Shown: positions 25,733-63,258 of the stretch, in pieces
Layout: each line of letters begins with the position of its first letter
Position numbering within the stretch: the stretch's first letter is position 1
DNA from: Patescibacteria group bacterium
GTDB taxonomy: Bacteria; Patescibacteriota; Patescibacteriia; UBA9934
Reading direction: 5' to 3'
DNA: 64,000 nt
Assembly: GCA_041659765.1 (NCBI GenBank)
Contig: JBAZXR010000001.1
Location: 182,923 to 246,922, forward strand
The notes under the pieces: model-generated
Told to the model about the DNA's origin: nothing
The model's database searches: none
Seen by the model: only the letters and a program-made list of their open reading frames with translations
Translations under genes and position numbers: made by a program

Positions 25733-26887
25733 ATGAAATCATTACGTATCTTCATGGTAGTTGCTCTTGCGGCGTTTGGCCTGATGGGTCAGGTCCGTCC
25801 TGTCTTCGCCGCCAGTGCGGGCGATGTCGTTGTTTGTCCGGAGTCCAGTTCCGTATATTATCTTGGTGAAGATGGGAAACGGTACGTTTACCAGAATGAG
25901 CAGACCTATTTTAGTTGGTATGACAATTTCGACATGGTGCAGACGGTTAGTTGCCGAGACCTGGCGGCATTTCCGCTCGCCGGGGTTGTTTGGTACCAGG
26001 CAGGAACATCGCTCGTAAAAATCCCAAGCGCCCCGACTGTATATGCGGTTGAACCTAGCGGTGTCTTGCGCCCGCTAGCGAGCGAGGCGGAAGCGATCAC
26101 GCTTTTCGGACCGGACTGGGCCGACCGCGTGGACGATGTTTCGGAAGCTTTCTGGCCGCAGTATTCGGTTGGTAATAAGCTCGAGGCCGGCGAAATTCCG
26201 GAGGGGACTATTTTAAAAGATGATGTTGGCGATTTGTTCCGATACCAAGATTTAGATAACGACACTCAGGACGAAGCTGTAGAGTTTGACGAGCTCGATG
26301 ATGATCACGTGCTGGACAATTTTGCGCTTGACCTTGAAGAAACGGCGGCGGAGCTTGATATTAAGATTGAACGGGTTGAGCTTGAGGGATTGTCTGAGAC
26401 ATTGATTGATCTGCTGCGCTCAGCGCTCGACGAAGATGTCTTTGTACCAGGGGGTGAAGAAGTTGAGGTGATGGATTTGAACGAATTGGATAAAGAGGCA
26501 GACAATGATAACGACGGGCTTTCCAATGAGGAAGACCTTGATGACGATGACGATGGCAAGCTCGACAGAGAGGATGCTGATCCGCTGGACCATGATAACG
26601 ATGGGCTAGATGACGCGGCGGATAGTGACGATGACGAGGACGGAATTCGGGACGTCAACGACAGCGACCTGCTCGATCATGATAACGACGGGTTAGATGA
26701 TGAGGAGGATGCGGATGATGACGGGGATGGTATTAAGGACGTTAGCGACAGTAAGGACGCTGACCACGATAACGACGGGTTGGAGGATGCGGAGGATCTT
26801 GACGATGACGGGGATGGGGTCAAGGATGTGGAAGATGCGGATGACGATGAGAGCGAATCAGCGGAAACTGAAGACAGTATCAACTGA
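25733..26887 (+). CDS. secreted protein: the shared domain at the N-terminus, then a poly-acidic thrombospondin-type-3-like Ca-binding repeat tail
   Basis: Signal peptide, then SVYYLGEDGKRYVYQNEQTYFSWYDNF...LVKIPSAPTVYAVEPSGVLRPL...LFGPDWADRVDDV. C-terminal half DHDNDGLDDxxDxDDDxDGxxDV repeats. Confidence 0.55.
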   Translation: MKSLRIFMVVALAAFGLMGQVRPVFAASAGDVVVCPESSSVYYLGEDGKRYVYQNEQTYFSWYDNFDMVQTVSCRDLAAFPLAGVVWYQAGTSLVKIPSAPTVYAVEPSGVLRPLASEAEAITLFGPDWADRVDDVSEAFWPQYSVGNKLEAGEIPEGTILKDDVGDLFRYQDLDNDTQDEAVEFDELDDDHVLDNFALDLEETAAELDIKIERVELEGLSETLIDLLRSALDEDVFVPGGEEVEVMDLNELDKEADNDNDGLSNEEDLDDDDDGKLDREDADPLDHDNDGLDDAADSDDDEDGIRDVNDSDLLDHDNDGLDDEEDADDDGDGIKDVSDSKDADHDNDGLEDAEDLDDDGDGVKDVEDADDDESESAETEDSIN

Positions 26888-26950: not shown

Positions 26951-27010
26951 AAAACCATCAGCCGTAAGGCTGATGGTTTTGTGGTAGGGACTAGTGCGTG
27001 TCATTAGAGC
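26951..27010. repeat. island repeat copy A (A-run, GNRA hairpin CCATCAGCC-GTAA-GGCTGATGG, conserved box)
   Basis: ...ttttgtggtagggactagtgcgtgtcattagagc; most diverged copy. Confidence 0.6.
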
Positions 27011-27061
27011 TGTTAACCAGTTTTCTACGCCTTAGGAACGAAGAGCTTCAAAATAAGTAAA

Positions 27062-27778
27062 TTAAGTATTTTCCGAATTAGGCAGGGAGATTTCTTTTAA
27101 CCGCGATTCTTGTGGGCTTGGTGTGTGCTCAGTAAACCAGGCGATTGCCAGCTGAGATACTTGTTCCAGGGCGCCTGGTTCCTCAAAGAGATGAGTCGCT
27201 CCTGGAATAATCGATAATTGTTTTACTCCGGCCAACTGATTATATGAGTCCCGATTTAGGGCGAGGACTTCATCATCAGCTCCGCCAATAATGAAGAGGG
27301 TTGGCACAGTGACTTGTGAAAGACTGTCGCCGGCTAAGTCTGTACGTCCGCCGCGTGAAACAACGGCTGAGACTTCCTGTGGACTTTGGGCGGCTACAAT
27401 GAGCGCCGCGGCCGCACCGGTGCTGGCGCCGAACAGTCCGAATGGTAAATGTTTGGTGTTTTCTTGGGCGCGTAACCAGGTTAGCGTTTGAGCTAGTCGC
27501 CTGACGAGGAGCTCGATATCAAATCTAGTGGCGTACGTTTTGTCCTCAGCCTCGGTGAGTAGATCAAAGAGCAGACTCCCGATACCTGTTTGATATAGAC
27601 TATCAGCCACGAATTCGTTGCGCGGACTGAGCCTACTACTGCCGCTACCATGCACAAATACCACGAGTAGCGTGGCTTTAGGCGGGAGACGAATAATTCC
27701 TTCCAGCGACTGTCCGTCAACGGGAATTGAGATGTTTGATTTAATTGGTCTCGACATATTCTTTGAGCGCTTGTCCAA
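27062..27778 (-). CDS. alpha/beta hydrolase (dienelactone hydrolase-like)
   Basis: VVFVHGSGSS, nucleophile elbow GLFGASTGAAAAL, C-terminal His region. Confidence 0.6.
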   Translation of the reverse strand: MDKRSKNMSRPIKSNISIPVDGQSLEGIIRLPPKATLLVVFVHGSGSSRLSPRNEFVADSLYQTGIGSLLFDLLTEAEDKTYATRFDIELLVRRLAQTLTWLRAQENTKHLPFGLFGASTGAAAALIVAAQSPQEVSAVVSRGGRTDLAGDSLSQVTVPTLFIIGGADDEVLALNRDSYNQLAGVKQLSIIPGATHLFEEPGALEQVSQLAIAWFTEHTPSPQESRLKEISLPNSENT

Positions 27779-28634
27779 GCAGCGGAGCTACGGAAATAAC
27801 CGAAACCCAAGGCATATTTGTTCTCGGCGCGAGCGTATCAGTGACGATAATTTCCTGGACGCCAACATCCTTGAGCTCTTTCCACGCTTCACCCGTAAAT
27901 AGCCCATGCGTTACCATGATAAGGATTTCTTCCACACCCTTGTCTTGCAGCTGACGGCAGGCTTGAAGAAGCGTAGCCCCTGTATCGAGTTGGTCGTCAA
28001 TTAGCACGCAGCGCTTGCCCACCTCGCCCACCAGATCGTGCACGGTAACGCCGTCCGGTGTCCTTTCTTTTTTAAAGTACGCCACGGGATTTGCTGATTG
28101 AAGGGCGCGAGCGACGGCTTCGCATCGAGGAATAGCGCCATTATCTGGAGCAACCAGCGTGGCATCTGTCCAATTTTTTTTCCGTATTTCTTCGCCGAAG
28201 AGAGGAGCAGGGGAGAGGGAGACGAGTTCGACTGGCATTAGCTCACGATCGTGTTCGCTGTGAAGATCTATGGTGATGATCGTATCAATGCCTGACGCCT
28301 TAGCAAGAGAGCCGACCCAGGCTGTGGTCAGACTCAACCCAGACTTCACTTTGTCATGCCGCGTATAAGCAGCGAAAGGGAGAATTGCGAGCACGCTTTT
28401 CGCTCCCTCTTTTTTCAGTGTATGGGCCGCGAGTAACGTGCCGAACAGGGAATCGTCTGGTGGGGTGAATGAACCGAATAAGAGAGCGGCTTCTCCGTTT
28501 ACGGGAGAGCAATTAGTTATGTACATCTCCCGATTATCGTAACGCCGCAACTCGAGCGTTCCAGGCTTATAAAGTGATGACTTACTGAGAACACGTGACA
28601 GCGGGTGCAGTATTTCGGTTGAAAAAAATTTCAT
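27741..28634 (-). CDS. prs: ribose-phosphate pyrophosphokinase (PRPP synthetase)
   Basis: FAAYTRHDK (AYxRQD-like), PRPP-binding VLIDDQLDTGATL, two-domain PRTase fold. Confidence 0.75.
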   Translation of the reverse strand: MKFFSTEILHPLSRVLSKSSLYKPGTLELRRYDNREMYITNCSPVNGEAALLFGSFTPPDDSLFGTLLAAHTLKKEGAKSVLAILPFAAYTRHDKVKSGLSLTTAWVGSLAKASGIDTIITIDLHSEHDRELMPVELVSLSPAPLFGEEIRKKNWTDATLVAPDNGAIPRCEAVARALQSANPVAYFKKERTPDGVTVHDLVGEVGKRCVLIDDQLDTGATLLQACRQLQDKGVEEILIMVTHGLFTGEAWKELKDVGVQEIIVTDTLAPRTNMPWVSVISVAPLLGQALKEYVETN

Positions 28635-29263
28635 AGAGCAAGATCACTCATCATTTCTATCACTTCTTCGTCGGATACCTGGCTGAAGTTTTTATAGTAA
28701 AAACCAATTGATCCTTGAAATTGAAGCGGGCGCTTGAGAACAATGAGGCGATCAACCAGTTTTTCTAGTTCTCTAATAGTATCTCTAGGGGCTACAGGCA
28801 CGGCCAGTACGACGGCTGACGGTTCCTTGGCTCTCGCTTCATCAATTGCCGCTTTCATGGTTAAACCGGTAGCTATTCCATCGTCCACAATGATCGCGGT
28901 TTTGCCTTTGACATCAACTGGCGTTCGGTCAGCCAGGTATTTGACGCGCCTTCTTGCCGCCTCGCCGCGCTGCCGTTCTACCTCGGCCTCAAACCAGGCC
29001 GGATCTATCCGTGAAACTTCTAATTCATTTTTTATGACTTTCCCTTTTTCTGAAACGGACGCAATGGCATATTCCGGGTTATCCGGGTGCCCAATTTTTC
29101 TTGGAATGAGCAGGTCTAGCGGTGCATGGAGATGTTGGGCGACAATTTTGCCGAGCGCTACGCCGCCTCGGGGGAGTGCAAATACAACTACGGGTTTGTC
29201 CTTGTATTCCTCCAGGCTCGTGGCGAGGAGAAACCCCGCCGCGTTTCTATCCGCAAAAGGCAT
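28631..29263 (-). CDS. type I phosphoribosyltransferase family protein
   Basis: PRPP-binding loop TAIIVDDGIATGLTMKAAI. 210 aa. Confidence 0.6.
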   Translation of the reverse strand: MPFADRNAAGFLLATSLEEYKDKPVVVFALPRGGVALGKIVAQHLHAPLDLLIPRKIGHPDNPEYAIASVSEKGKVIKNELEVSRIDPAWFEAEVERQRGEAARRRVKYLADRTPVDVKGKTAIIVDDGIATGLTMKAAIDEARAKEPSAVVLAVPVAPRDTIRELEKLVDRLIVLKRPLQFQGSIGFYYKNFSQVSDEEVIEMMSDLAL

Positions 29264-29271
29264 ATTAATTA

Positions 29272-29661
29272 CTAGGCATTCGTCACTTCACAGTAGCCCG
29301 TGTAGCCACCCTCTAGGTTACGGATATTCTTATAGCCAAGTTTGAGGAGTGCTTGTCCGCAGAGTGCTGAACGGCCACCAGTTGCGCACTGCACAACGAT
29401 TGGGGCATTTTTGTCCGGTACAATTTCTGAAATTTTGAATTCCACTAAGCCGCGGGGGAGGTGAACGGCGCCTTGAATATGCCCCGCATCCCACTCGTTC
29501 CGCTCCCGAACATCCAGCAGTGTGTGAGCCTCTCCTCTCTCGCGAAGTGCTAAATAATCCTGACAAGTGATGGCGGGAACTTCTGCTTTTGCCTGCGCTA
29601 CCAAATCTTGTGCGGTCATTTCCATAGGGATGATAGTTATTATGCCTGAAGTGTACCCCAT
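29272..29661 (-). CDS. rhodanese-domain sulfurtransferase
   Basis: 129 aa. Active-site loop VVQCATGGRSA. ERNEWDAGHIQGA signature. Confidence 0.7.
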   Translation of the reverse strand: MGYTSGIITIIPMEMTAQDLVAQAKAEVPAITCQDYLALRERGEAHTLLDVRERNEWDAGHIQGAVHLPRGLVEFKISEIVPDKNAPIVVQCATGGRSALCGQALLKLGYKNIRNLEGGYTGYCEVTNA

Positions 29662-29680: not shown

Positions 29681-29748
29681 ACAAAAACACCAGCCGTGCG
29701 GCTGATGGGTTTGTGGCAGGGGCTAGTACGTGACGTTAGAACTTTAAC
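29681..29748. repeat. island repeat copy B
   Basis: acaaaaacaccagccgtgcggctgatgggtttgtggcaggggctagtacgtgacgttagaactttaac. Confidence 0.65.
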
Positions 29749-30134: not shown

Positions 30135-30239
30135 CTACAGCACACGACATCCAGGAGACCGCCAACGAAGCGCGGCGCTCCCCCGGGTGTCGTTCTTTAT
30201 TTAGAGTGTGACGATACGGCATTTTCAGATTAATCGAAG

Positions 30240-30527
30240 TTAGAACTCTTTCCGTACTCGGTTCATGAGCATTTTATACACCACGGAACGATGCTCGATT
30301 AGGTAGATATTGATCTTTTTGCCTTTGATGCGAAAAATGACGCGATAATCCCCGACACGGAGTTTTCGATCACCGCTTTTCGAGTGCCGAAGGGGAATCC
30401 CAAATACCTCCGGCCTCGTCATCAACTTTGTTTCGATCGCGCTTTTGGTTCGTTTCCTGATTGCCGCACCCAACTTCGGAATATCTTCTTTTACAACGAG
30501 CGGATGATAGGAGACGGCAAAACTCAT
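30240..30527 (-). CDS. type II toxin, RelE/ParE family
   Basis: YHPLVVKEDIPKL...RKLRVGDYRVIFRIKGKKINIYLIEHRSVVY matches the RelE/ParE consensus. 4-nt overlap with the upstream antitoxin gene. Confidence 0.65.
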   Translation of the reverse strand: MSFAVSYHPLVVKEDIPKLGAAIRKRTKSAIETKLMTRPEVFGIPLRHSKSGDRKLRVGDYRVIFRIKGKKINIYLIEHRSVVYKMLMNRVRKEF

Positions 30528-30745
30528 ACCCATGCATCATCATGGGAGATAAATTTGCCCTTTACCTTTTCACGTTTATTTACAAGTTCGACGAACACCG
30601 CATCTTCCTCGATTTCGAGCGCGGCGCGAACGAGCTCCAAAGTCTTGGCAGCAACTGACGTCTGATCACGAACCGCGAGCTTTTCAAGAGCTCGACCCAT
30701 GTCCGCCGTGACTGAAAGATTAATTCGCTGTTTGGTAGTGGGCAT
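30524..30745 (-). CDS. ribbon-helix-helix antitoxin (CopG/ParD-like)
   Basis: MPTTKQRINLSVTADMGRALEKLAVRDQTSVAAKTLELVRAAL. Sits directly upstream of the toxin. Confidence 0.55.
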   Translation of the reverse strand: MPTTKQRINLSVTADMGRALEKLAVRDQTSVAAKTLELVRAALEIEEDAVFVELVNKREKVKGKFISHDDAWV

Positions 30746-30800
30746 AGAATAATGAAAGTGTAACACCGCAGTAACACCTGGTCAAACAGTTTATCACAAC

Positions 30801-30868
30801 AAAAAATCCAGCCATTGCTTGCTGAATGTTTTGTGGTAGGGGTTACTCTGCGACGTTAGAACTCTAAC
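30801..30868. repeat. island repeat copy C
   Basis: aaaaaatccagccattgcttgctgaatgttttgtggtaggggttactctgcgacgttagaactctaac. Confidence 0.6.
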
Positions 30869-30888: not shown

Positions 30889-31890
30889 TTAATAGAATTT
30901 GACCTGTACTGCGGAAGTCGTAGGAGGAATAGAGACAAGCGCCCGACCACCGCCCGGTAAGCTGAAGGAAATTCCTGGGGCAGATGTTTGCAGATCTGTG
31001 GGCCAAGGGGGAGCGGTCCCTCCATCAATGACCGCACAGGGCGCTGTTTGGGGTTTTGGAAGCTGGAACAATGCTGACTGCCCTTCAGAGGTTACGACGA
31101 CTCCCTCTATGGTAGTGGTTTTCTGAATGTCGTATTTTCCGTCTTGTGTAATGGCCTCCTCGTACTGGCAAGCATCAGGAGTTGCTTGAAGCGCGATGGT
31201 GTAGGACGGATATCCAGGCTTGATGAGCGTGAGGTCTTCAACTGCTCCCCAGTCTTCGGCGTACGTGGACCGGATTGTTTCTTTCCCATTCTGGTAAACG
31301 ATGTCGGTATAGTCCGCTCCTTCTGAATAGCCCTCCACCAGTTGTAAAATAAACGCAGACTCACTTTTCGTATATGACCAATCAATAAATGGATACGTAG
31401 TAAGATCGTCTTGCGTGTAGACGACGGATTCTCTGCCGAGCGAGTCTTTTTTGACGAGGATAAATTGTTTATCAGTCACTCGCCCTTCCCATGTGGAGTC
31501 ACCAAAAGACGCGATCTTGACTAGGCTATTAACATAATAGTCATTCGGGTGGGGTTCGGGCGAGGTTTTGGTCGTGGTCTTGGGAGATATTGCCGGCCGG
31601 GAATAAGCCGGGTTCGCGGGAGCGCTAACATGTTTATTATTTGAAGGAAAGACACGAGATATGGATCCAGCAATTGCAATGGTCATCAGAATTACCGACA
31701 GGATAATGATTACAAGATTGCGCTGACGAGACACCTTTGTCTTCATATTATGCGAGGGTAGCAAGAAAAACAAAAACCGGCCAGCAATTATACTGGTCGG
31801 GCTTTGGCAGGGGCTAGTACGCGACGTTAGAACTTTAATCATCCTCTCATCGCATTCCACTGCTGAATATCTTCGTCGCTCTTGCACCAA
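30889..31890 (-). CDS. membrane-anchored/secreted hypothetical protein
   Basis: 333 aa. N-terminal TM (LVIIILSVILMTIAIAG), Ser/Pro-rich linker, beta-rich body. No known motif. Confidence 0.4.
   Translation of the reverse strand: MVQERRRYSAVECDERMIKVLTSRTSPCQSPTSIIAGRFLFFLLPSHNMKTKVSRQRNLVIIILSVILMTIAIAGSISRVFPSNNKHVSAPANPAYSRPAISPKTTTKTSPEPHPNDYYVNSLVKIASFGDSTWEGRVTDKQFILVKKDSLGRESVVYTQDDLTTYPFIDWSYTKSESAFILQLVEGYSEGADYTDIVYQNGKETIRSTYAEDWGAVEDLTLIKPGYPSYTIALQATPDACQYEEAITQDGKYDIQKTTTIEGVVVTSEGQSALFQLPKPQTAPCAVIDGGTAPPWPTDLQTSAPGISFSLPGGGRALVSIPPTTSAVQVKFY
31771..31838. repeat. island repeat copy D (abuts stop codon of 31839..32159)
   Basis: caaaaaccggccagcaattatactggtcgggctttggcaggggctagtacgcgacgttagaactttaa. 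A-run and hairpin identical to the sequence just 3' of tRNA-Trp. Confidence 0.7.
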
Positions 31891-32159
31891 TATCCGCCAA
31901 TTACTTCAGACATCCAGGCGTCGTCGGCTCCTATTCGACGATATTGTTTATCGGGGTGAAATAGCTCGCATTTTAACCGTCGTATTACTGAGTATTGATA
32001 GCGTCCACCTGAGCCGGGGAAGATGGTCATTCTTCCGTCTGCCATGAGCGACCAAAAGAACCCGAGATCAACTAGAATAATGAAAGTTAAAGTAATGAAG
32101 GTCGTAGTAAGGACCGTTGCGCCTATCAGGCCACCGATTAGTTGAAGTCGACTTTTCAT
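31839..32159 (-). CDS. small membrane-anchored protein, paralog 1 (FHPxKxYRxIG-DAW-GxYWC family)
   Basis: 106 aa. TM then GGRYQYSVIRRLKCELFHPDKQYRRIGADDAWMSEVIGGYWCKSDEDIQQW. Paralog of 32565..32846. Confidence 0.5.
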   Translation of the reverse strand: MKSRLQLIGGLIGATVLTTTFITLTFIILVDLGFFWSLMADGRMTIFPGSGGRYQYSVIRRLKCELFHPDKQYRRIGADDAWMSEVIGGYWCKSDEDIQQWNAMRG

Positions 32160-32174
32160 ACTTGATGAATAATA

Positions 32175-32477
32175 TCACTCAAGCGTATACCGCTCGTCCA
32201 AATTTACTTTGAGTTTTGAAAGCACGGGATTTGGTAGGTTCTCTTGAACCCGCTCGATCTGCGCACCCGGCACAACAGAAAGAATGTAGTTTTTCATCGG
32301 CGACGCATCAGATCCGGTCAGTACCGCGAATCGAACGATCACTCCGTCCTCGTCATTTTCTACTAAAAGATTCTCGCCGAGTTGATTGGCAAATTTTCGT
32401 AACCGACCGCGGAGCATCACACCCTGGAGGGAAGTTGATGATGTCATTTCGTAGATATCCCAATGAAGAAGCTCCAT
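32175..32477 (-). CDS. acylphosphatase-like domain protein, putative
   Basis: LQGVMLRGRLRKFANQLGENLLVENDEDGVIVRFAVLTG resembles acylphosphatase VQGVxFR...GxVxNxxDGxV. Confidence 0.35.
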   Translation of the reverse strand: MELLHWDIYEMTSSTSLQGVMLRGRLRKFANQLGENLLVENDEDGVIVRFAVLTGSDASPMKNYILSVVPGAQIERVQENLPNPVLSKLKVNLDERYTLE

Positions 32478-32500
32478 ATTATCGATAAGCCTATCATAAA

Positions 32501-32564
32501 AGAAAAGACCAGCAATTTCTGCTGATCTTGTCTTGGCAGGGGCTAGTGCGTGACGTTAGAACTA
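32501..32564. repeat. island repeat copy E (abuts stop codon of 32565..32846)
   Basis: agaaaagaccagcaatttctgctgatcttgtcttggcaggggctagtgcgtgacgttagaacta. Confidence 0.65.
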
Positions 32565-32846
32565 TCATGGCCCATGCGACGACCTGAATCGCTCTATATC
32601 GTTGTCGCTCATACACCAGTAGCTGCCGTTTATTGTATCGGTTGACCAGGCGTCTTCGCCGATTAATCGGTATTCCTTCCCTGGGTGAAAGACTTTGCAG
32701 GCCAACATATTTCTCAATGAGAATATGTATCTCGGCGGGCCACCAAGTATGACGACTGGGAAGAAAAAATCCAAAAAGAAATACATACCCGCCAGCAATA
32801 TCATGGCAACTATAAGAGCTCGTTTGAGGTTTTTGCTGAATTTCAT
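32565..32846 (-). CDS. small membrane-anchored protein, paralog 2
   Basis: 93 aa. TM then GGPPRYIFSLRNMLACKVFHPGKEYRLIGEDAWSTDTINGSYWCMSDNDIERF. Confidence 0.5.
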   Translation of the reverse strand: MKFSKNLKRALIVAMILLAGMYFFLDFFFPVVILGGPPRYIFSLRNMLACKVFHPGKEYRLIGEDAWSTDTINGSYWCMSDNDIERFRSSHGP

Positions 32847-32904
32847 AGTGTGCCCGTTTATTGATTATAACAAAAACCGGCCAGCTTGACGACTGGTCGG
32901 GCTT

Positions 32905-32979
32905 TGGCAGGGGAACTGGGATTCGAACCCAGAACTTTTCTTTTGGAGAGAAAAATGATAGCCATTTCACTATTCCCCT
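32905..32979 (-). tRNA. tRNA-Trp (anticodon CCA), CCA encoded
   Basis: Reverse complement AGGGGAA-TA-GTGA-AATGGCTA-TCAT-T-TTTCT-CTCCAAA-AGAAA-AGTT-CTGGG-TTCGAAT-CCCAG-TTCCCCT-G-CCA. All stems pair (one G-U in the D stem). Followed on the minus strand by a hairpin and T-run. Confidence 0.8.
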
Positions 32980-33644
32980 TTAGTTTCGTTTGCGAATGCA
33001 TGGTATATGGCGGCGATGGTTTTTGCAACCTTCGCGTCATGATATCTGATGGAAATGCAGCCTTCGTAGTCAGGATGGATTTGAAGGCCGGAGTGTGGTT
33101 TATGGAAAGATTTATTGAATTGACCTTGTGGGATGTTGGTTAATTGAGACCAAAATAGCTTTTGCGTCTTTTCATTGTGATACGAGTGCAGGTGCATGAG
33201 TACTCTGAACTTTCTTTCATCTAGTTCAAATCCGCTTCTCATGGCTTTCAAAAAAGAGACGATTAGTTCCGGGTCAGAGTTTGTAAAGCGAAGCGTAGAA
33301 AAATTAGTTTTTTCTCCCTCGCACCAGTAAAGTAATGCGGTTGTTAATCGCCAAAAATTAGCGGAGGCAGATTTTAATATCCTATTTACATCTTTTTTGG
33401 CAGCTACCTCTCTAGTTCGTTGCTCAAAGGTGCGTCTGGCTTTGCTTGCGGCTCTTCCTTTTTCTCGCCCACTCAGCTGTGCTTGTTCGAGTGTAAGTCT
33501 GATCGATTTTGGGAGTACGATTTTACGTACCCAGAGTGAGACGGTACTTTTTGCAAGACCGGTTTTATGAGCGATGGTTCCAATTGAATCTCCTTTCTTA
33601 CGCAGGGTCGACACAAGGTTCTTTATTTTTTTATCGTATGCCAT
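32970..33644 (-). CDS. HTH-domain protein of unknown function adjacent to tRNA-Trp (possible recombinase/homing-type protein)
   Basis: Probable start MAYDKKIKNLVSTLRKKGDSIGTIAHKTGLAKSTVSLWVRK (HTH). C-terminal 150 aa unassigned. 3' end overlaps the tRNA 5' end by about 10 nt. Confidence 0.4.
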   Translation of the reverse strand: MAYDKKIKNLVSTLRKKGDSIGTIAHKTGLAKSTVSLWVRKIVLPKSIRLTLEQAQLSGREKGRAASKARRTFEQRTREVAAKKDVNRILKSASANFWRLTTALLYWCEGEKTNFSTLRFTNSDPELIVSFLKAMRSGFELDERKFRVLMHLHSYHNEKTQKLFWSQLTNIPQGQFNKSFHKPHSGLQIHPDYEGCISIRYHDAKVAKTIAAIYHAFANETKGE

Positions 33645-33752
33645 AGTGTATATAACCGCTTGTGATGGTTCGATTATATCATGGCGTTGCGATGTCACGT
33701 GAACTTTGTTTGCTTCATCGGCATTGATAGTCTGTGGTATTATTTTGTTGAT

Positions 33753-34283
33753 ATGACTCCAAGGAGGAAAGGTTCGGCCAAAAAAGATACAGCTAAACCC
33801 GAGAGAGCGTCGCTTAGAACAGCGGCGATTTTTGCGCAGAAGATGAATGATCGGCGGAGTTATAGTCAGAAAGCGGCTGACGCGCTTACCCAGTATTTTG
33901 GTCGCATGTGGTTTTTGCTTGCGAATGGCCTATTTTTTCTGGTGTGGGTGTTAGTGAATGTCGGTGCTATACCATTCATCCCAGTCTTTGATCCATTTCC
34001 GTTTTTCCTGCTAACCACCTTTGTTTCTCTCGAGGCGATTTTGTTGGCAGTAACGGTTTTAATTTCTGAGAACCGTGCGGCCCGAGTCGCGGAGCTGCGC
34101 GAAGAAATGGATTTCCAAGTGAATGTTCAATCGGAACGGGAGATTACGAAGATTCTGCACATGGTAGATGAAATCCGAACGGCCATGAAGATGAAGTCAA
34201 AGCATGATCCAGAGCTAGCGGCGATGAAAGAAACGATTGACGTTGACAGGCTGGGCGAAGAAATTGAAGAAGAGATGGGGTAG
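33753..34283 (+). CDS. DUF1003-family membrane protein
   Basis: Two TM helices (WFLLANGLFFLVWVLVNVGAIPF, FPFFLLTTFVSLEAILLAVTVLIS), then RAARVAELREEMDFQVNVQSEREI helical tail, typical of DUF1003. Confidence 0.5.
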   Translation: MTPRRKGSAKKDTAKPERASLRTAAIFAQKMNDRRSYSQKAADALTQYFGRMWFLLANGLFFLVWVLVNVGAIPFIPVFDPFPFFLLTTFVSLEAILLAVTVLISENRAARVAELREEMDFQVNVQSEREITKILHMVDEIRTAMKMKSKHDPELAAMKETIDVDRLGEEIEEEMG

Positions 34284-62000: not shown

Positions 62001-62072
62001 TTAATATTGGCTACATTGTTTGACAATTATTCAAAAGGTTGGTCTACTCCAGCTCGCATTAAGGAGGTAGGG

Positions 62073-62615
62073 ATGCCGTTTAATCCGTTTGAGGATGTTC
62101 GGCAGCCCTGCAAAACAGAGGGTTGCCCGCGCAAAGCGTTTAGTGGTGATGGGCTGTGCACGGTTTGTGTCTCCAGAGCGACTGTGGCGAAGCATTTCGG
62201 CATAGAGCCTGCGTCTGTTTCTGTCGCTCCCGACACGCCTGTTGCTGAACGATGCGCTATTCCTGGTTGTGGCAGTCGCCGGGTGTATCGCGAGTGGTGT
62301 ATGCCGCATTTGGTGGTATTCGCTAATCTGTTTCGGCTGACGAAGCTGAAGAAGGGTCATGGGAGAGAAATCCTGTGCATTGAGCCGGGCTGTGGGAAAA
62401 CCGCTGACTCCCGTCACCGATGCGGATCCCATCTTCATCGTTGGCGGAAGGCGTTCAAGGCGGTGGGGCAGCCGTTTCCAAAAGTTAAGAAACCACCGCC
62501 GACACCGTGCCCGGTTCCTGGGTGTGGTGATACGGTCAGGGTTAGAGGATTTTGCTTGAAACACTTCGGTGATGTGAATTATGCCGTTCGGGCTAACATC
62601 GTTAAAGCCGCGTGA
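62073..62615 (+). CDS. protein with four tandem Cys-rich zinc-ribbon-like repeats (C-x3-GC...G-x-C-x2-C/H)
   Basis: CKTEGCPRKAFSGDGLCTVCVSR; CAIPGCGSRRVYREWCMPH; CIEPGCGKTADSRHRCGSHLHRW; CPVPGCGDTVRVRGFCLKHFG. Confidence 0.5.
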   Translation: MPFNPFEDVRQPCKTEGCPRKAFSGDGLCTVCVSRATVAKHFGIEPASVSVAPDTPVAERCAIPGCGSRRVYREWCMPHLVVFANLFRLTKLKKGHGREILCIEPGCGKTADSRHRCGSHLHRWRKAFKAVGQPFPKVKKPPPTPCPVPGCGDTVRVRGFCLKHFGDVNYAVRANIVKAA

Positions 62616-62658
62616 GTCGGGTGAGGCTTCGTGCCGGCAGACTAGCTGCCGGTTTTTT

Positions 62659-63258
62659 TTATGTTTCACTTCTTCCATTCAGTGCACTTGCCAGCGTTAC
62701 TTCGTCTGCATACTCAATATCAGCGCCCATGGGGAGGCCGCGGGCAAGCCTCGTAATCTTTTTGTCGACGCCTTTTAAGAGGCGGCTTAAATATAAAATA
62801 GTAGTTTCGCCATGAACGTCCGGAGAGAAGGCTAAAATAATTTCTTTGATTCCGAGGTCTGCCTTGAGCCGGTCGTTCAGCTGGCGGACGTTCAGTGTGT
62901 CTGGCGTATAGCCGTCGATTGGATTTAACACGCCACCGAGCACGAAGTACCGGCCTTTGTACATGCCGGTCGCCTCAATGGTCGAAATATCTCGCGCTTC
63001 AGCCACGACGCAGAGGACATCGGTTGCACGCCGAGCATCCGAGCAGATATCGCAGATGCTACTTTCGGCGTAGGTAAAACACGTGGTACAGGTAGCCACG
63101 CGTTTGAGGTTTTCGATCGCGCGTGCCACGAGATCGAGCTCGTCCTTTCTCAGATGCAGCAGCGCAAAAACATACCGAAGCGCAGTCTTCGGCCCAACTC
63201 CCGGCAATCGACCCATAGCCGCCATTGCGTTGTGAATTGGAGCGGGGAATTTTCTCAT
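62659..63258 (-). CDS. recR: recombination protein RecR
   Basis: GRLPGVGPKTALRY HhH, C4 zinc finger CTTCFTYAESSICDICSD, Toprim domain. Confidence 0.9.
   Translation of the reverse strand: MRKFPAPIHNAMAAMGRLPGVGPKTALRYVFALLHLRKDELDLVARAIENLKRVATCTTCFTYAESSICDICSDARRATDVLCVVAEARDISTIEATGMYKGRYFVLGGVLNPIDGYTPDTLNVRQLNDRLKADLGIKEIILAFSPDVHGETTILYLSRLLKGVDKKITRLARGLPMGADIEYADEVTLASALNGRSET

What the first reader, a model, noticed from the sequence alone, without database searches (positions are those of the whole stretch)
31839..32846. Duplicated small membrane-anchored protein family (FHPxKxYRxIG...DAW...GxYWC...D-I) riding on the repeat modules
The 106-aa and 93-aa proteins share TM, GG..RY, L.C..FHP.K.YR.IG.DDAW....I.G.YWC.SD.DI. 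Each is immediately followed by a repeat box that abuts its stop codon. No family assignment could be made by eye. The conserved Cys/Trp/His pattern suggests a small extracytoplasmic domain. They may be the cargo that defines this cassette type, for example immunity or small effector-like proteins.
Basis: seen in the sequence. Interest (0 to 1): 0.5.

Follow-up and report, generated by a model that had tools for sequence, protein, structure and literature searches.

The report
Orphan membrane protein on tRNA-Trp cassettes
Two diverged copies of a very rare, uncharacterised small membrane-anchored protein sit in separate mini gene cassettes stacked behind the tRNA-Trp gene of a Patescibacteria genome; relatives in other metagenomes sit in the same kind of cassette, so they look like mobile accessory cargo, not housekeeping genes.

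Summary
The 106-aa gene (31839-32159, -) and the 93-aa gene (32565-32846, -) are real paralogues (46% identity over 59 aa, E=4e-18). Each stop codon lies 1-4 nt before a 30-nt box, AGTTCTAACGTCRCGYACTAGCCCCTGCCA, followed by a terminator hairpin.

The family matches nothing in Pfam, NCBIfam, PHROGs, PADLOC or PDB sequences. An exhaustive HMMER scan of 1.84 billion representatives gave about 10 true members; a second search added two, making 13 (79-106 aa). Cys64, Cys92, Ser57 and Trp91 are invariant. AlphaFold2 gives a confident small alpha-beta-beta-alpha domain behind one TM helix (block-mean pLDDT 85-95 over residues 61-106), with no significant structural match.

The box mimics the tRNA-Trp 3' end. 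Five boxes follow tRNA-Trp in the window. Across contigs, flanking sequence changes exactly at box edges, which points to site-specific recombination. Eight of ten family members with known context sit in such cassettes. All four where upstream sequence can be read lie behind tRNA-Trp.

No recombinase was found, and the protein's function is unresolved.

The parts
31839..32159 (-). 106-aa family member (NCBI WC813_01180): N-terminal TM helix with an FDLG-type Asp, a variable linker, and a ~50-aa Cys64/Cys92 alpha-beta-beta-alpha domain. It is the second gene of cassette B.
   Evidence: ORF; identical to P0001; alignment; AF2 mean pLDDT 82, block means 93/94/90/95/85 over residues 61-106; omega ~0.13
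32565..32846 (-). 93-aa family member (WC813_01190). It is the only gene of cassette A, the first cassette after tRNA-Trp.
   Evidence: ORF; 46% identity, E=4e-18 to the 106-aa protein; P0002
32534..32563 (-). 30-nt box A (AGTTCTAACGTCACGCACTAGCCCCTGCCA), a tRNA-Trp 3'-end mimic and inferred recombination site, 1 nt after the 93-aa stop codon.
31805..31834 (-). 30-nt box B (AGTTCTAACGTCGCGTACTAGCCCCTGCCA), 4 nt after the 106-aa stop codon.
32905..32979 (-). tRNA-Trp(CCA), anchor of the array. Its 3' end ...AGTTCT[T-arm]TTCCCCTGCCA is what the boxes imitate.
   Evidence: ARAGORN; Rfam tRNA 62.9 bits; alignment A3
32864..32904 (-). 'Head' of cassette A: a terminator hairpin directly after the tRNA, overlapped by a promoter-like site (TCGTCA-17-TATAAT). 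It is 75% identical over 72 nt to the head after box B.
   Evidence: (D3)
32501..32533 (-). Terminator hairpin after box A (head of cassette B).
32175..32477 (-). 100-aa protein, first gene of cassette B, 15 nt upstream of the 106-aa gene. It has a weak acylphosphatase-like match below the curated cutoff.
   Evidence: Pfam PF00708 E=1.5e-3, 19.2 bits against a cutoff of 22.5; NCBIfam E=4.5e-4
31742..31804 (-). Terminator hairpin and head after box B (start of cassette C). It is related to the heads that precede family genes in L007 and L012.
   Evidence: (D3)
30834..30863 (-). Box C, which ends the cassette carrying a 285-aa membrane-anchored protein (30889-31746).
29714..29743 (-). Box D, which ends the cassette carrying the ParE-like toxin and antitoxin (30240-30766) and a convergent 102-aa ORF.
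26982..27011 (-). Box E, the last and most diverged. It ends the rhodanese/PRTase/PRPP-synthetase-like/hydrolase cassette (27062-29661) and is followed by a perfect 18-bp hairpin.

Best explanation
The two ORFs are separately diverged members of a very rare orphan family of small proteins, probably specific to Patescibacteria. Each has one N-terminal transmembrane helix carrying a conserved Asp, a variable linker, and a compact ~50-aa alpha-beta-beta-alpha domain with two invariant cysteines. They are cargo genes of two adjacent mini-cassettes in an array anchored at the 3' end of tRNA-Trp.

Each cassette has three parts: a 'head' (terminator hairpin plus short 5' region), one to four genes, and a 'tail' (AGTTCTAACGTCRCGYACTAG). 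These join at a 9-nt core, CCCCTGCCA, identical to the tRNA-Trp acceptor end.

Inferred mechanism: a circular cassette recombines site-specifically through this core with the tRNA 3' end or with an existing box. This regenerates the tRNA and pushes older cassettes distally. The recombinase acts in trans and is unidentified.

Inferred protein function (low confidence, about 0.2): the domain is displayed outside the membrane, is disulfide-stabilised, and acts as a binding or blocking module at the cell surface, for example in exclusion or immunity. In some relatives it works together with a co-translated 105-aa two-TM partner.

Shown: paralogy, purifying selection, absence from known families, the predicted fold, the cassette context, and box-edge breakpoints. 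Inferred: the recombination mechanism, the topology, the disulfide and the function.
For: Paralogy and selection.

Rarity and orphan status: 13 hits at E<=1e-3 among 1.84e9 representatives, 3 of them spurious repetitive proteins. There were no hits in Pfam, NCBIfam, PHROGs, PADLOC or PDB sequences, and no significant fold match.

Fold: AF2 with 13 sequences gives mean pLDDT 82 and block means of 85-95 over residues 61-106.

Box resembles the tRNA 3' end: alignment A3. The core matches the local tRNA-Trp in the window, L003 and L011, and a shorter core matches in L001 and L007.

Array: there are 5 boxes, all downstream of tRNA-Trp and in the same orientation, each followed by a terminator.

Breakpoints at box edges: L002/L006 similarity ends 2 nt after the box. 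L002/L003 similarity starts at box nucleotide 1 and runs 473 nt downstream. The L004/window match starts 2 nt before the box.

Recurrent association: family members in L001, L007, L009, L011, L012 and L013 are all box-flanked, and tRNA-Trp is directly upstream in L001, L007 and L011. Flanking synteny is otherwise unrelated.

Not a recent duplication: w106 is 62% identical to the L001 protein against 46% to w93.

Toxin-antitoxin cassettes sit in the window and L001 arrays, as in other mobile arrays.

Precedent for stacked integrations separated by partial tRNA copies: bioRxiv 10.1101/2020.12.28.424599.
Against: No tyrosine or serine recombinase was detected in the 64-kb window or in any fetched locus.

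No box or family member was found on viral contigs. No excised circle or empty site has been observed, so mobility is inferred only from comparative breakpoints.

Identity between box and tRNA covers only AGTTCT plus the 9-nt core, and the T-arm part of the box is unrelated.

Two family members (L008; L010, between an inferred ychF-like fragment and ddl) lack boxes.

Charge distribution around the TM helix is ambiguous, so topology is uncertain (read from the sequences). The Cys-Cys distance could not be measured because no model coordinates were available.
Confidence: 0.68

Rival explanations
1. This is an ordinary chromosomal tandem duplication of a lineage-specific small membrane protein. 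On this view the boxes are just locally duplicated tRNA-end/terminator sequence copied along with the genes and have no mobility function.
For: The two genes are neighbours on the same strand. No recombinase lies nearby. GC content differs only slightly from the surroundings, 0.44-0.46 against ~0.49.
Against: w106 is closer to proteins from other metagenomes than to w93, and dS is saturated. The same box ends cassettes with unrelated cargo in six further contigs. Sequence similarity between contigs starts or stops at box edges. Family members recur behind tRNA-Trp in contigs with otherwise unrelated synteny.
Confidence: 0.08
2. The box works at the RNA level, as a tRNA-3'-end mimic plus terminator that serves as a processing or stabilising signal for RNase P/Z or the CCA-adding enzyme. 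On this view the genes are simply expressed downstream of tRNA-Trp, and modular reassortment results from homologous recombination between boxes.
For: The box aligns position for position with the tRNA from the variable loop to CCA. Every box is followed by an intrinsic terminator. The box always lies on the sense strand just after a stop codon.
Against: The 30-nt box is predicted unpaired, or folded inconsistently, in all five copies, with no acceptor or T-arm minihelix partner. There is no Rfam match. The T-arm equivalent is scrambled. The box is conserved as linear sequence across cassettes while the adjacent hairpins vary freely, which is typical of a protein-recognised DNA site.
Confidence: 0.14
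3. The protein is a small membrane toxin or holin-like effector, depolarising or lytic, kept in check by a partner. The partner would be the 105-aa two-TM protein in L011/L012 or the 100-aa protein in the window. On this view it is an addiction or abortive-infection module and not a surface binding protein.
For: It is a small single-pass protein with a conserved membrane-embedded Asp. It is translationally coupled (ATGA overlap) to a second small membrane protein in L011/L012. It lies in arrays that also hold classical TA modules.
Against: It stands alone in its cassette in the window (93 aa), L001, L007 and L009. The strongest conservation and the confident fold lie in the soluble domain, not the TM helix. 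There is no PADLOC hit.
Confidence: 0.1

Closest known systems
Tandem integrative elements at tRNA genes separated by partial tRNA copies (e.g. Prochlorococcus tycheposons, bioRxiv 10.1101/2020.12.28.424599; Dehalococcoides ssrA islands, PMC3146451)
   Same: A tRNA 3' end acts as the attachment site. Direct repeats that mimic the tRNA end separate successive insertions, and newer elements are thought to push older ones distally. Cargo is accessory. tRNA function is preserved.
   Different: The units here are only 0.7-2.7 kb with 1-4 genes, and none carries an integrase or replication module. The repeat shares only AGTTCT and a 9-nt core with the tRNA; its conserved 21-nt 'tail' is not tRNA sequence. 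No mobilising element was found.
Integron gene cassettes, including sedentary chromosomal integrons and CALINs
   Same: Arrays of very short, mostly single-ORF cassettes, each ending in a recombination site directly after or overlapping the stop codon. Most cargo is of unknown function and often small membrane or secreted proteins. Toxin-antitoxin cassettes are interspersed. There is no recombinase inside the cassettes.
   Different: There is no attC-type imperfect palindrome (R''/L''/L'/R'). There is no intI or attI, and the array is anchored at tRNA-Trp. The box is a conserved linear 30-mer, whereas attC sites are structurally conserved but variable in sequence. Each cassette seems to bring its own terminator and possibly its own promoter.
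CIMEs (cis-mobilizable elements) formed by site-specific accretion (reviewed in PMC5704250)
   Same: att-flanked DNA segments without their own integrase, stacked by accretion at a chromosomal site and dependent on a recombinase supplied in trans.
   Different: CIMEs are derived from ICEs or IMEs of Firmicutes and are normally found next to an element that carries the integrase. No such element is seen here, and the lineage (Patescibacteria) and cassette size are different.
Small phage- or plasmid-encoded membrane-anchored exclusion or immunity proteins (functional analogy only)
   Same: Under 110 aa, a single N-terminal anchor, a small folded domain, and carriage on mobile DNA.
   Different: No sequence or structural similarity was detected. 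The analogy rests on architecture and context alone.

Membership tests
Any curated protein family (Pfam-A, NCBIfam, PHROGs, PADLOC, PDB sequences) | Profile match above the curated or significance threshold | tested here: not met
   There were 0 Pfam, PHROG or PADLOC families for both window proteins. The only NCBIfam hits cover the TM segment: SecE E=0.06 (13 bits against a cutoff of 27.6) and RC1041 E=0.75. PDB sequence hits match the TM segment only.
SecE (considered because tRNA-Trp often precedes secE-nusG and because of the weak NCBIfam hit) | SecE profile match and a downstream nusG-rplK context | tested here: not met
   13.3 bits against a cutoff of 27.55, over 23 TM residues only. The downstream genes are cassettes, not nusG/rplK.
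Integron gene cassette | attC site: an imperfect inverted repeat with RYYYAAC ... GTTRRRY core sites that folds as a hairpin | tested here: not met
   The box begins with a TTCTAAC-like heptamer, but no inverse core site follows. The 30-mer is unpaired in the folds, and the adjacent hairpin is a plain terminator.
Integron gene cassette | Adjacent intI integrase and attI | tested here: not met
   No tyrosine recombinase was detected in the window or loci by phmmer or motif scan (a limited test). The array starts at tRNA-Trp.
tRNA-targeted integrative element array (tycheposon-like or genomic-island accretion) | Direct repeats identical to the 3' part of the target tRNA at each element boundary | tested here: met
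   The 9-nt core CCCCTGCCA plus AGTTCT is shared with tRNA-Trp in register. The core tracks the local tRNA-Trp in L001, L003, L007 and L011. Five copies lie in tandem orientation.
tRNA-targeted integrative element array (tycheposon-like or genomic-island accretion) | Element-encoded integrase next to the att site | tested here: not met
   None was found in any cassette of the window or of L001-L013.
tRNA-targeted integrative element array (tycheposon-like or genomic-island accretion) | Demonstrated excision or integration (circular junctions, empty sites) | not testable with these tools
   This needs raw reads or closely related strains. Only comparative breakpoints at box edges are available.
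Type IV pilin-like proteins (N-terminal hydrophobic helix plus a C-terminal disulfide) | Class III signal peptide, G/(F,M)TLxE, with Glu at position +5 | tested here: not met
   No such motif occurs in any of the 13 sequences; the N-termini read MKxxxxLIGA... (read directly).
HNH / beta-beta-alpha-Me nucleases (several non-significant BFVD hits) | Catalytic His and a metal-binding Asn/His on a beta-beta-alpha core, with a significant fold match | tested here: not met
   Foldseek E-values are 1.9-4 with probability <=0.1. The family has no invariant His or Asn.

The most novel reading that the evidence does not exclude
Patescibacteria may carry a previously undescribed, integron-like gene-cassette system. 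In it the 3' end of tRNA-Trp would play the role of attI, and a conserved 30-nt tRNA-end mimic followed by a terminator would play the role of attC. Sub-kilobase to ~2.7-kb cassettes would be shuffled by a recombinase encoded elsewhere. On this reading the small Cys-Cys membrane-anchored family is among its recurrent cargoes and encodes a new extracellular fold used at the cell surface of these episymbionts.
Probability: 0.35. Interest if true: 0.7.

Novelty: new variant of a known kind. Interest (0 to 1): 0.5.

Why it matters
Patescibacteria (CPR) have tiny genomes, and how they gain and exchange accessory genes is poorly understood. An array of integrase-less mini-cassettes behind tRNA-Trp, bounded by a conserved tRNA-end mimic and seen in several unrelated contigs, would be a compact route for gene exchange. 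It would be comparable in logic to integrons but built on a tRNA attachment site.

The small protein family is a concrete, testable cargo. It is under purifying selection, has a confidently predicted small fold with no detectable relatives, and is likely displayed at the membrane of organisms that live attached to host cells.

If the cassettes prove immobile, the result is simply a new orphan family of modest interest.

Tried and rejected
- Pfam, NCBIfam, PHROGs, PADLOC and PDB-sequence searches of both proteins and the family profile found nothing beyond TM-segment noise.
- The first AF2 run, with 3 sequences, was too weak to use (pLDDT 64.5). The 13-sequence run was good.
- Back-translated searches for the family in JGI metagenome contigs and IMG/VR found nothing.
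- Box searches in viral contigs, with two patterns, found nothing.
- An ORF at 62034-62678 has a tyrosine-recombinase-like HQMRHT motif but no Pfam match, so it was rejected as an integrase. phmmer with XerD and Hin found no recombinase in the window or loci.
- The 242-aa HTH protein abutting the tRNA 5' end was considered as a recombinase. It has only sub-threshold HTH matches, lies on the wrong side of the tRNA, and is absent from the equivalent position in L001 and L003, so it was not pursued.
- RNA-structure reading of the box: no consistent fold and no Rfam family.
- The integron attC reading was rejected because there is no inverse core site or palindrome.
- P0005, P0013 and P0014 from the HMMER search were judged spurious repetitive or low-complexity matches.
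- Looking up the window's own contig by protein P0001 failed because it is not on record.
- Literature searches found no description of such arrays in CPR.
Full report
**1. What is at the coordinates**

On the minus strand there are two ORFs, 31839-32159 (106 aa) and 32565-32846 (93 aa).
- They align with 27/59 identities (46%), E=4e-18, over the C-terminal part.
- Both begin with a Lys/Arg-rich N-terminus followed by a strongly hydrophobic stretch.
- The 64-kb window comes from an 897-kb contig of a Patescibacteria (CPR) MAG. The proteins are annotated there as hypothetical WC813_01180 and WC813_01190.
- The 93-aa stop codon is 1 nt from a 30-nt box at 32534-32563. The 106-aa stop codon is 4 nt from a box at 31805-31834.

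**2. The protein family**

No curated library recognises these proteins.
- Pfam, PHROGs and PADLOC give nothing. NCBIfam gives only sub-threshold matches to the TM segment (SecE E=0.06). A profile search of PDB sequences matches only the TM segment.
- A word-indexed search of 5.8 billion proteins found one further relative, P0003.
- An exhaustive HMMER search of 1.84 billion 50%-identity representatives found 13 hits at E<=1e-3. Three of them (P0005, P0013, P0014) are repetitive, unrelated proteins.
- A second search with the enlarged profile added P0015 and P0016. The family now has 13 known sequences of 79-106 aa.

Conservation in the 13-sequence alignment, numbered on the 106-aa protein:
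- Invariant: S57, C64, W91, C92.
- Nearly invariant: D31 (an Asp at the end of the TM helix, in the motif FDLG), P69, K71, Y73, Y90.

Selection and structure:
- Against its nearest relative, the C-domain of the 106-aa protein has dN 0.26 with saturated dS, omega about 0.13. These are functional genes.
- AlphaFold2 with three sequences was unreliable (pLDDT 64.5).
- With 13 sequences it gave mean pLDDT 82, with block means of 93/94/90/95/85 over residues 61-106. The model has a long TM helix (2-40), a disordered linker (43-49), then helix 58-67, strand 72-75, strand 90-93 and helix 95-105.
- Topology (N-in, C-out) and a Cys64-Cys92 disulfide are inferences.

**3. The box and the array**

tRNA-Trp(CCA) lies at 32905-32979 on the minus strand. 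Downstream of it, in the same orientation, are five copies of AGTTCTAACGTCRCGYACTAGCCCCTGCCA. They are at 32534-32563, 31805-31834, 30834-30863, 29714-29743 and 26982-27011.
- Each copy is followed by an intrinsic-terminator hairpin.
- Aligned with the tRNA, the box matches in register from the variable loop (AGTTCT) to the 3' end (CCCCTGCCA). The T-arm segment is replaced by unrelated sequence and is 2 nt shorter.
- The 30-mer has no consistent predicted RNA structure and no Rfam match.

The boxes divide the 6 kb after the tRNA into five cassettes:
- A: the 93-aa gene.
- B: a 100-aa weakly acylphosphatase-like gene plus the 106-aa gene.
- C: a 285-aa membrane-anchored protein.
- D: a ParE-like toxin with its antitoxin, plus a convergent 102-aa ORF.
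- E: rhodanese, two phosphoribosyltransferase-family proteins and an alpha/beta hydrolase.

**4. Evidence that the box is a recombination site**

A degenerate box pattern found copies in a Candidatus Uhrbacteria contig (L002), a contig labelled Gammaproteobacteria that also carries tRNA-Trp 1.1 kb upstream (L003), and three metagenome contigs (L004-L006; L005 again has tRNA-Trp).

The 30-mer is nearly identical everywhere while the flanks differ. blastn places the similarity boundaries at the box edges:
- L002 and L006 share the cargo 3' end and the box, then diverge 2 nt after it.
- L002 and L003 are unrelated upstream but similar from box nucleotide 1 for 473 nt downstream.
- L004 matches the window from 2 nt before box D, through its terminator, to the rhodanese start codon.

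A second module, the 'head', also recurs. It consists of the core, the hairpin AAGCCCGACCAG...CTGGCCGGTTTTTGTT and a short leader.
- It occurs after the window tRNA (before the 93-aa gene) and after box B (before the 285-aa gene).
- It occurs after the L007 tRNA (before the family gene P0004) and before the family gene in L012 (D3, 87, 92, 108).

The simplest reading is a cassette made of head, gene(s) and tail that recombines through the 9-nt core shared with the tRNA acceptor end. In L001 the tRNA-Trp acceptor end is different (TGGCTCTGCCA), and the boxes there carry a matching variant (TGGCCTGCCA). L013 carries a third box variant.

**5. Does the family ride on these cassettes?**

Context could be retrieved for ten family members.
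- Window (two genes): described above.
- L001 (P0003): tRNA-Trp, then a YafQ-like toxin/antitoxin cassette, a box, the gene, a box, and two more cassettes.
- L007 (P0004): the gene is the first cassette directly after tRNA-Trp and is followed by a degenerate box plus terminator.
- L009 (P0015): a box-like element upstream and a box 8 nt after the stop codon.
- L011 (P0016): tRNA-Trp, one cassette, then the gene with an overlapping 105-aa two-TM gene, then a box.
- L012 (P0007): the same two-gene cassette between box remnants.
- L013 (P0010): flanked by the variant box.
- L008 (P0012) and L010 (P0011, which sits between what I read as a ychF-like fragment and ddl): no box within 8 mismatches.

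Outside the array, flanking genes are unrelated between the window, L001 and L007. The association is therefore with tRNA-Trp and the box, not with conserved synteny.

**6. Duplication or independent cassettes?**

The 106-aa protein is 62%, 56% and 49% identical to the L001, L007 and L009 proteins, but only 46% identical to its 93-aa neighbour over 59 aa. The best matches of the 93-aa protein are 41-48% to the L012, L009 and L011 proteins. The two window genes belong to different branches and have different heads. They are two old cassettes, not a recent tandem duplication.

**7. What is missing**

- Nothing was found on viral contigs.
- GC content is only slightly lower than the surroundings.
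- Mobility is inferred from comparative breakpoints, not observed directly.
- The function of the protein is unknown. My preferred guess is a surface-exposed, disulfide-stabilised binding or blocking module. It rests on architecture, selection on the soluble domain and the mobile context, and I give it about 0.2. A toxin or holin-like role with a partner is the main functional rival.

**8. Comparison with known systems**

The logic matches stacked integrations at tRNA genes separated by partial tRNA copies, as in tycheposons and Dehalococcoides ssrA islands (title and abstract). It also matches integrase-less CIMEs. In cassette size, ORF-then-site layout, unknown small cargo and interspersed TA modules it resembles chromosomal integrons. 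It fails the defining tests for integrons (no attC palindrome, no intI or attI) and for self-contained integrative elements (no integrase in the unit). Literature searches found no description of this arrangement in CPR.

I therefore rate it as a new variant of a known kind. The protein itself is an orphan family with a small predicted fold that has no detectable relatives.

**9. Verdict**

- Interest 0.5.

Noticed in passing
window 26500-26830 (+), inside ORF 25733-26887: Four tandem 87-nt repeats encode acidic DxDNDGLxDxxDxDDDxDG units, which look like calcium-binding thrombospondin type-3 repeats. They lie at the C-terminus of a 384-aa secreted protein that converges on the end of the cassette array.
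   Followed up: no
window 32970-33698 (-): A 242-aa protein whose stop codon overlaps the 5' end of tRNA-Trp. It has a sub-threshold resolvase-type HTH at the N-terminus (Pfam HTH_7 E=7e-4; PHROG 'transposase' 1.6e-4) and a C-terminal 'LYWCEGEK...NSD' region that may be LAGLIDADG-like. It is not present next to tRNA-Trp in L001 or L003.
   Followed up: partly
window 30235-30249 and 30240-30766 (-): A ParE-like toxin with an upstream overlapping antitoxin forms one cassette. The toxin's stop codon lies inside a partial box (AGAGTTCTAACTTCG) that lacks the rest of the 30-mer. The L001 array also starts with a YafQ-like toxin/antitoxin cassette, which recalls TA-stabilised integron arrays.
   Followed up: partly
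L002 5677-5740 and L003 5786-5850: Directly after the box comes a hairpin and then a second acceptor-end remnant, TGGCCTGCCA, which matches the L001-type tRNA-Trp end. A second hairpin follows. This looks like nested remnants of older recombination events from a lineage with a different tRNA-Trp.
   Followed up: no
L011 1322-1639 and L012 481-798: A 105-aa two-TM protein, 71% identical between the two loci and without any Pfam match, is translationally coupled (ATGA) to the family gene. Its ORF reads into the box and stops at the box's TAG. It is a possible functional partner.
   Followed up: partly
L013 311-341, ~672-708, 1033-1063: A third box variant, AAGTTCCAACYGTGTCCAC.ACGCCCCGCCA, flanks the family member P0010 three times within 1 kb. 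This suggests that the tail and core co-evolve with the host tRNA.
   Followed up: partly
L003 (CAYROW010000018.1): This contig is labelled 'uncultured Gammaproteobacteria'. It shares a 97%-identical tRNA-Trp with L007 and 473 nt of box-downstream sequence with a Candidatus Uhrbacteria contig, so it is probably a mis-binned Patescibacteria contig.
   Followed up: no
window 31500-34000: GC content dips to 0.43-0.46 against about 0.49-0.50 in the flanks. The dip covers the two tRNA-proximal cassettes, the tRNA and the 242-aa HTH gene.
   Followed up: no
box sequence, all copies: The box offers stop codons in two reading frames (TAA in GTTCTAAC, TAG in ACTAGCC). Several cargo ORFs end inside it (L003 334-aa protein, L011/L012 105-aa protein, window ParE-like toxin in the partial box). 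This parallels ORFs that end inside integron attC sites.
   Followed up: partly
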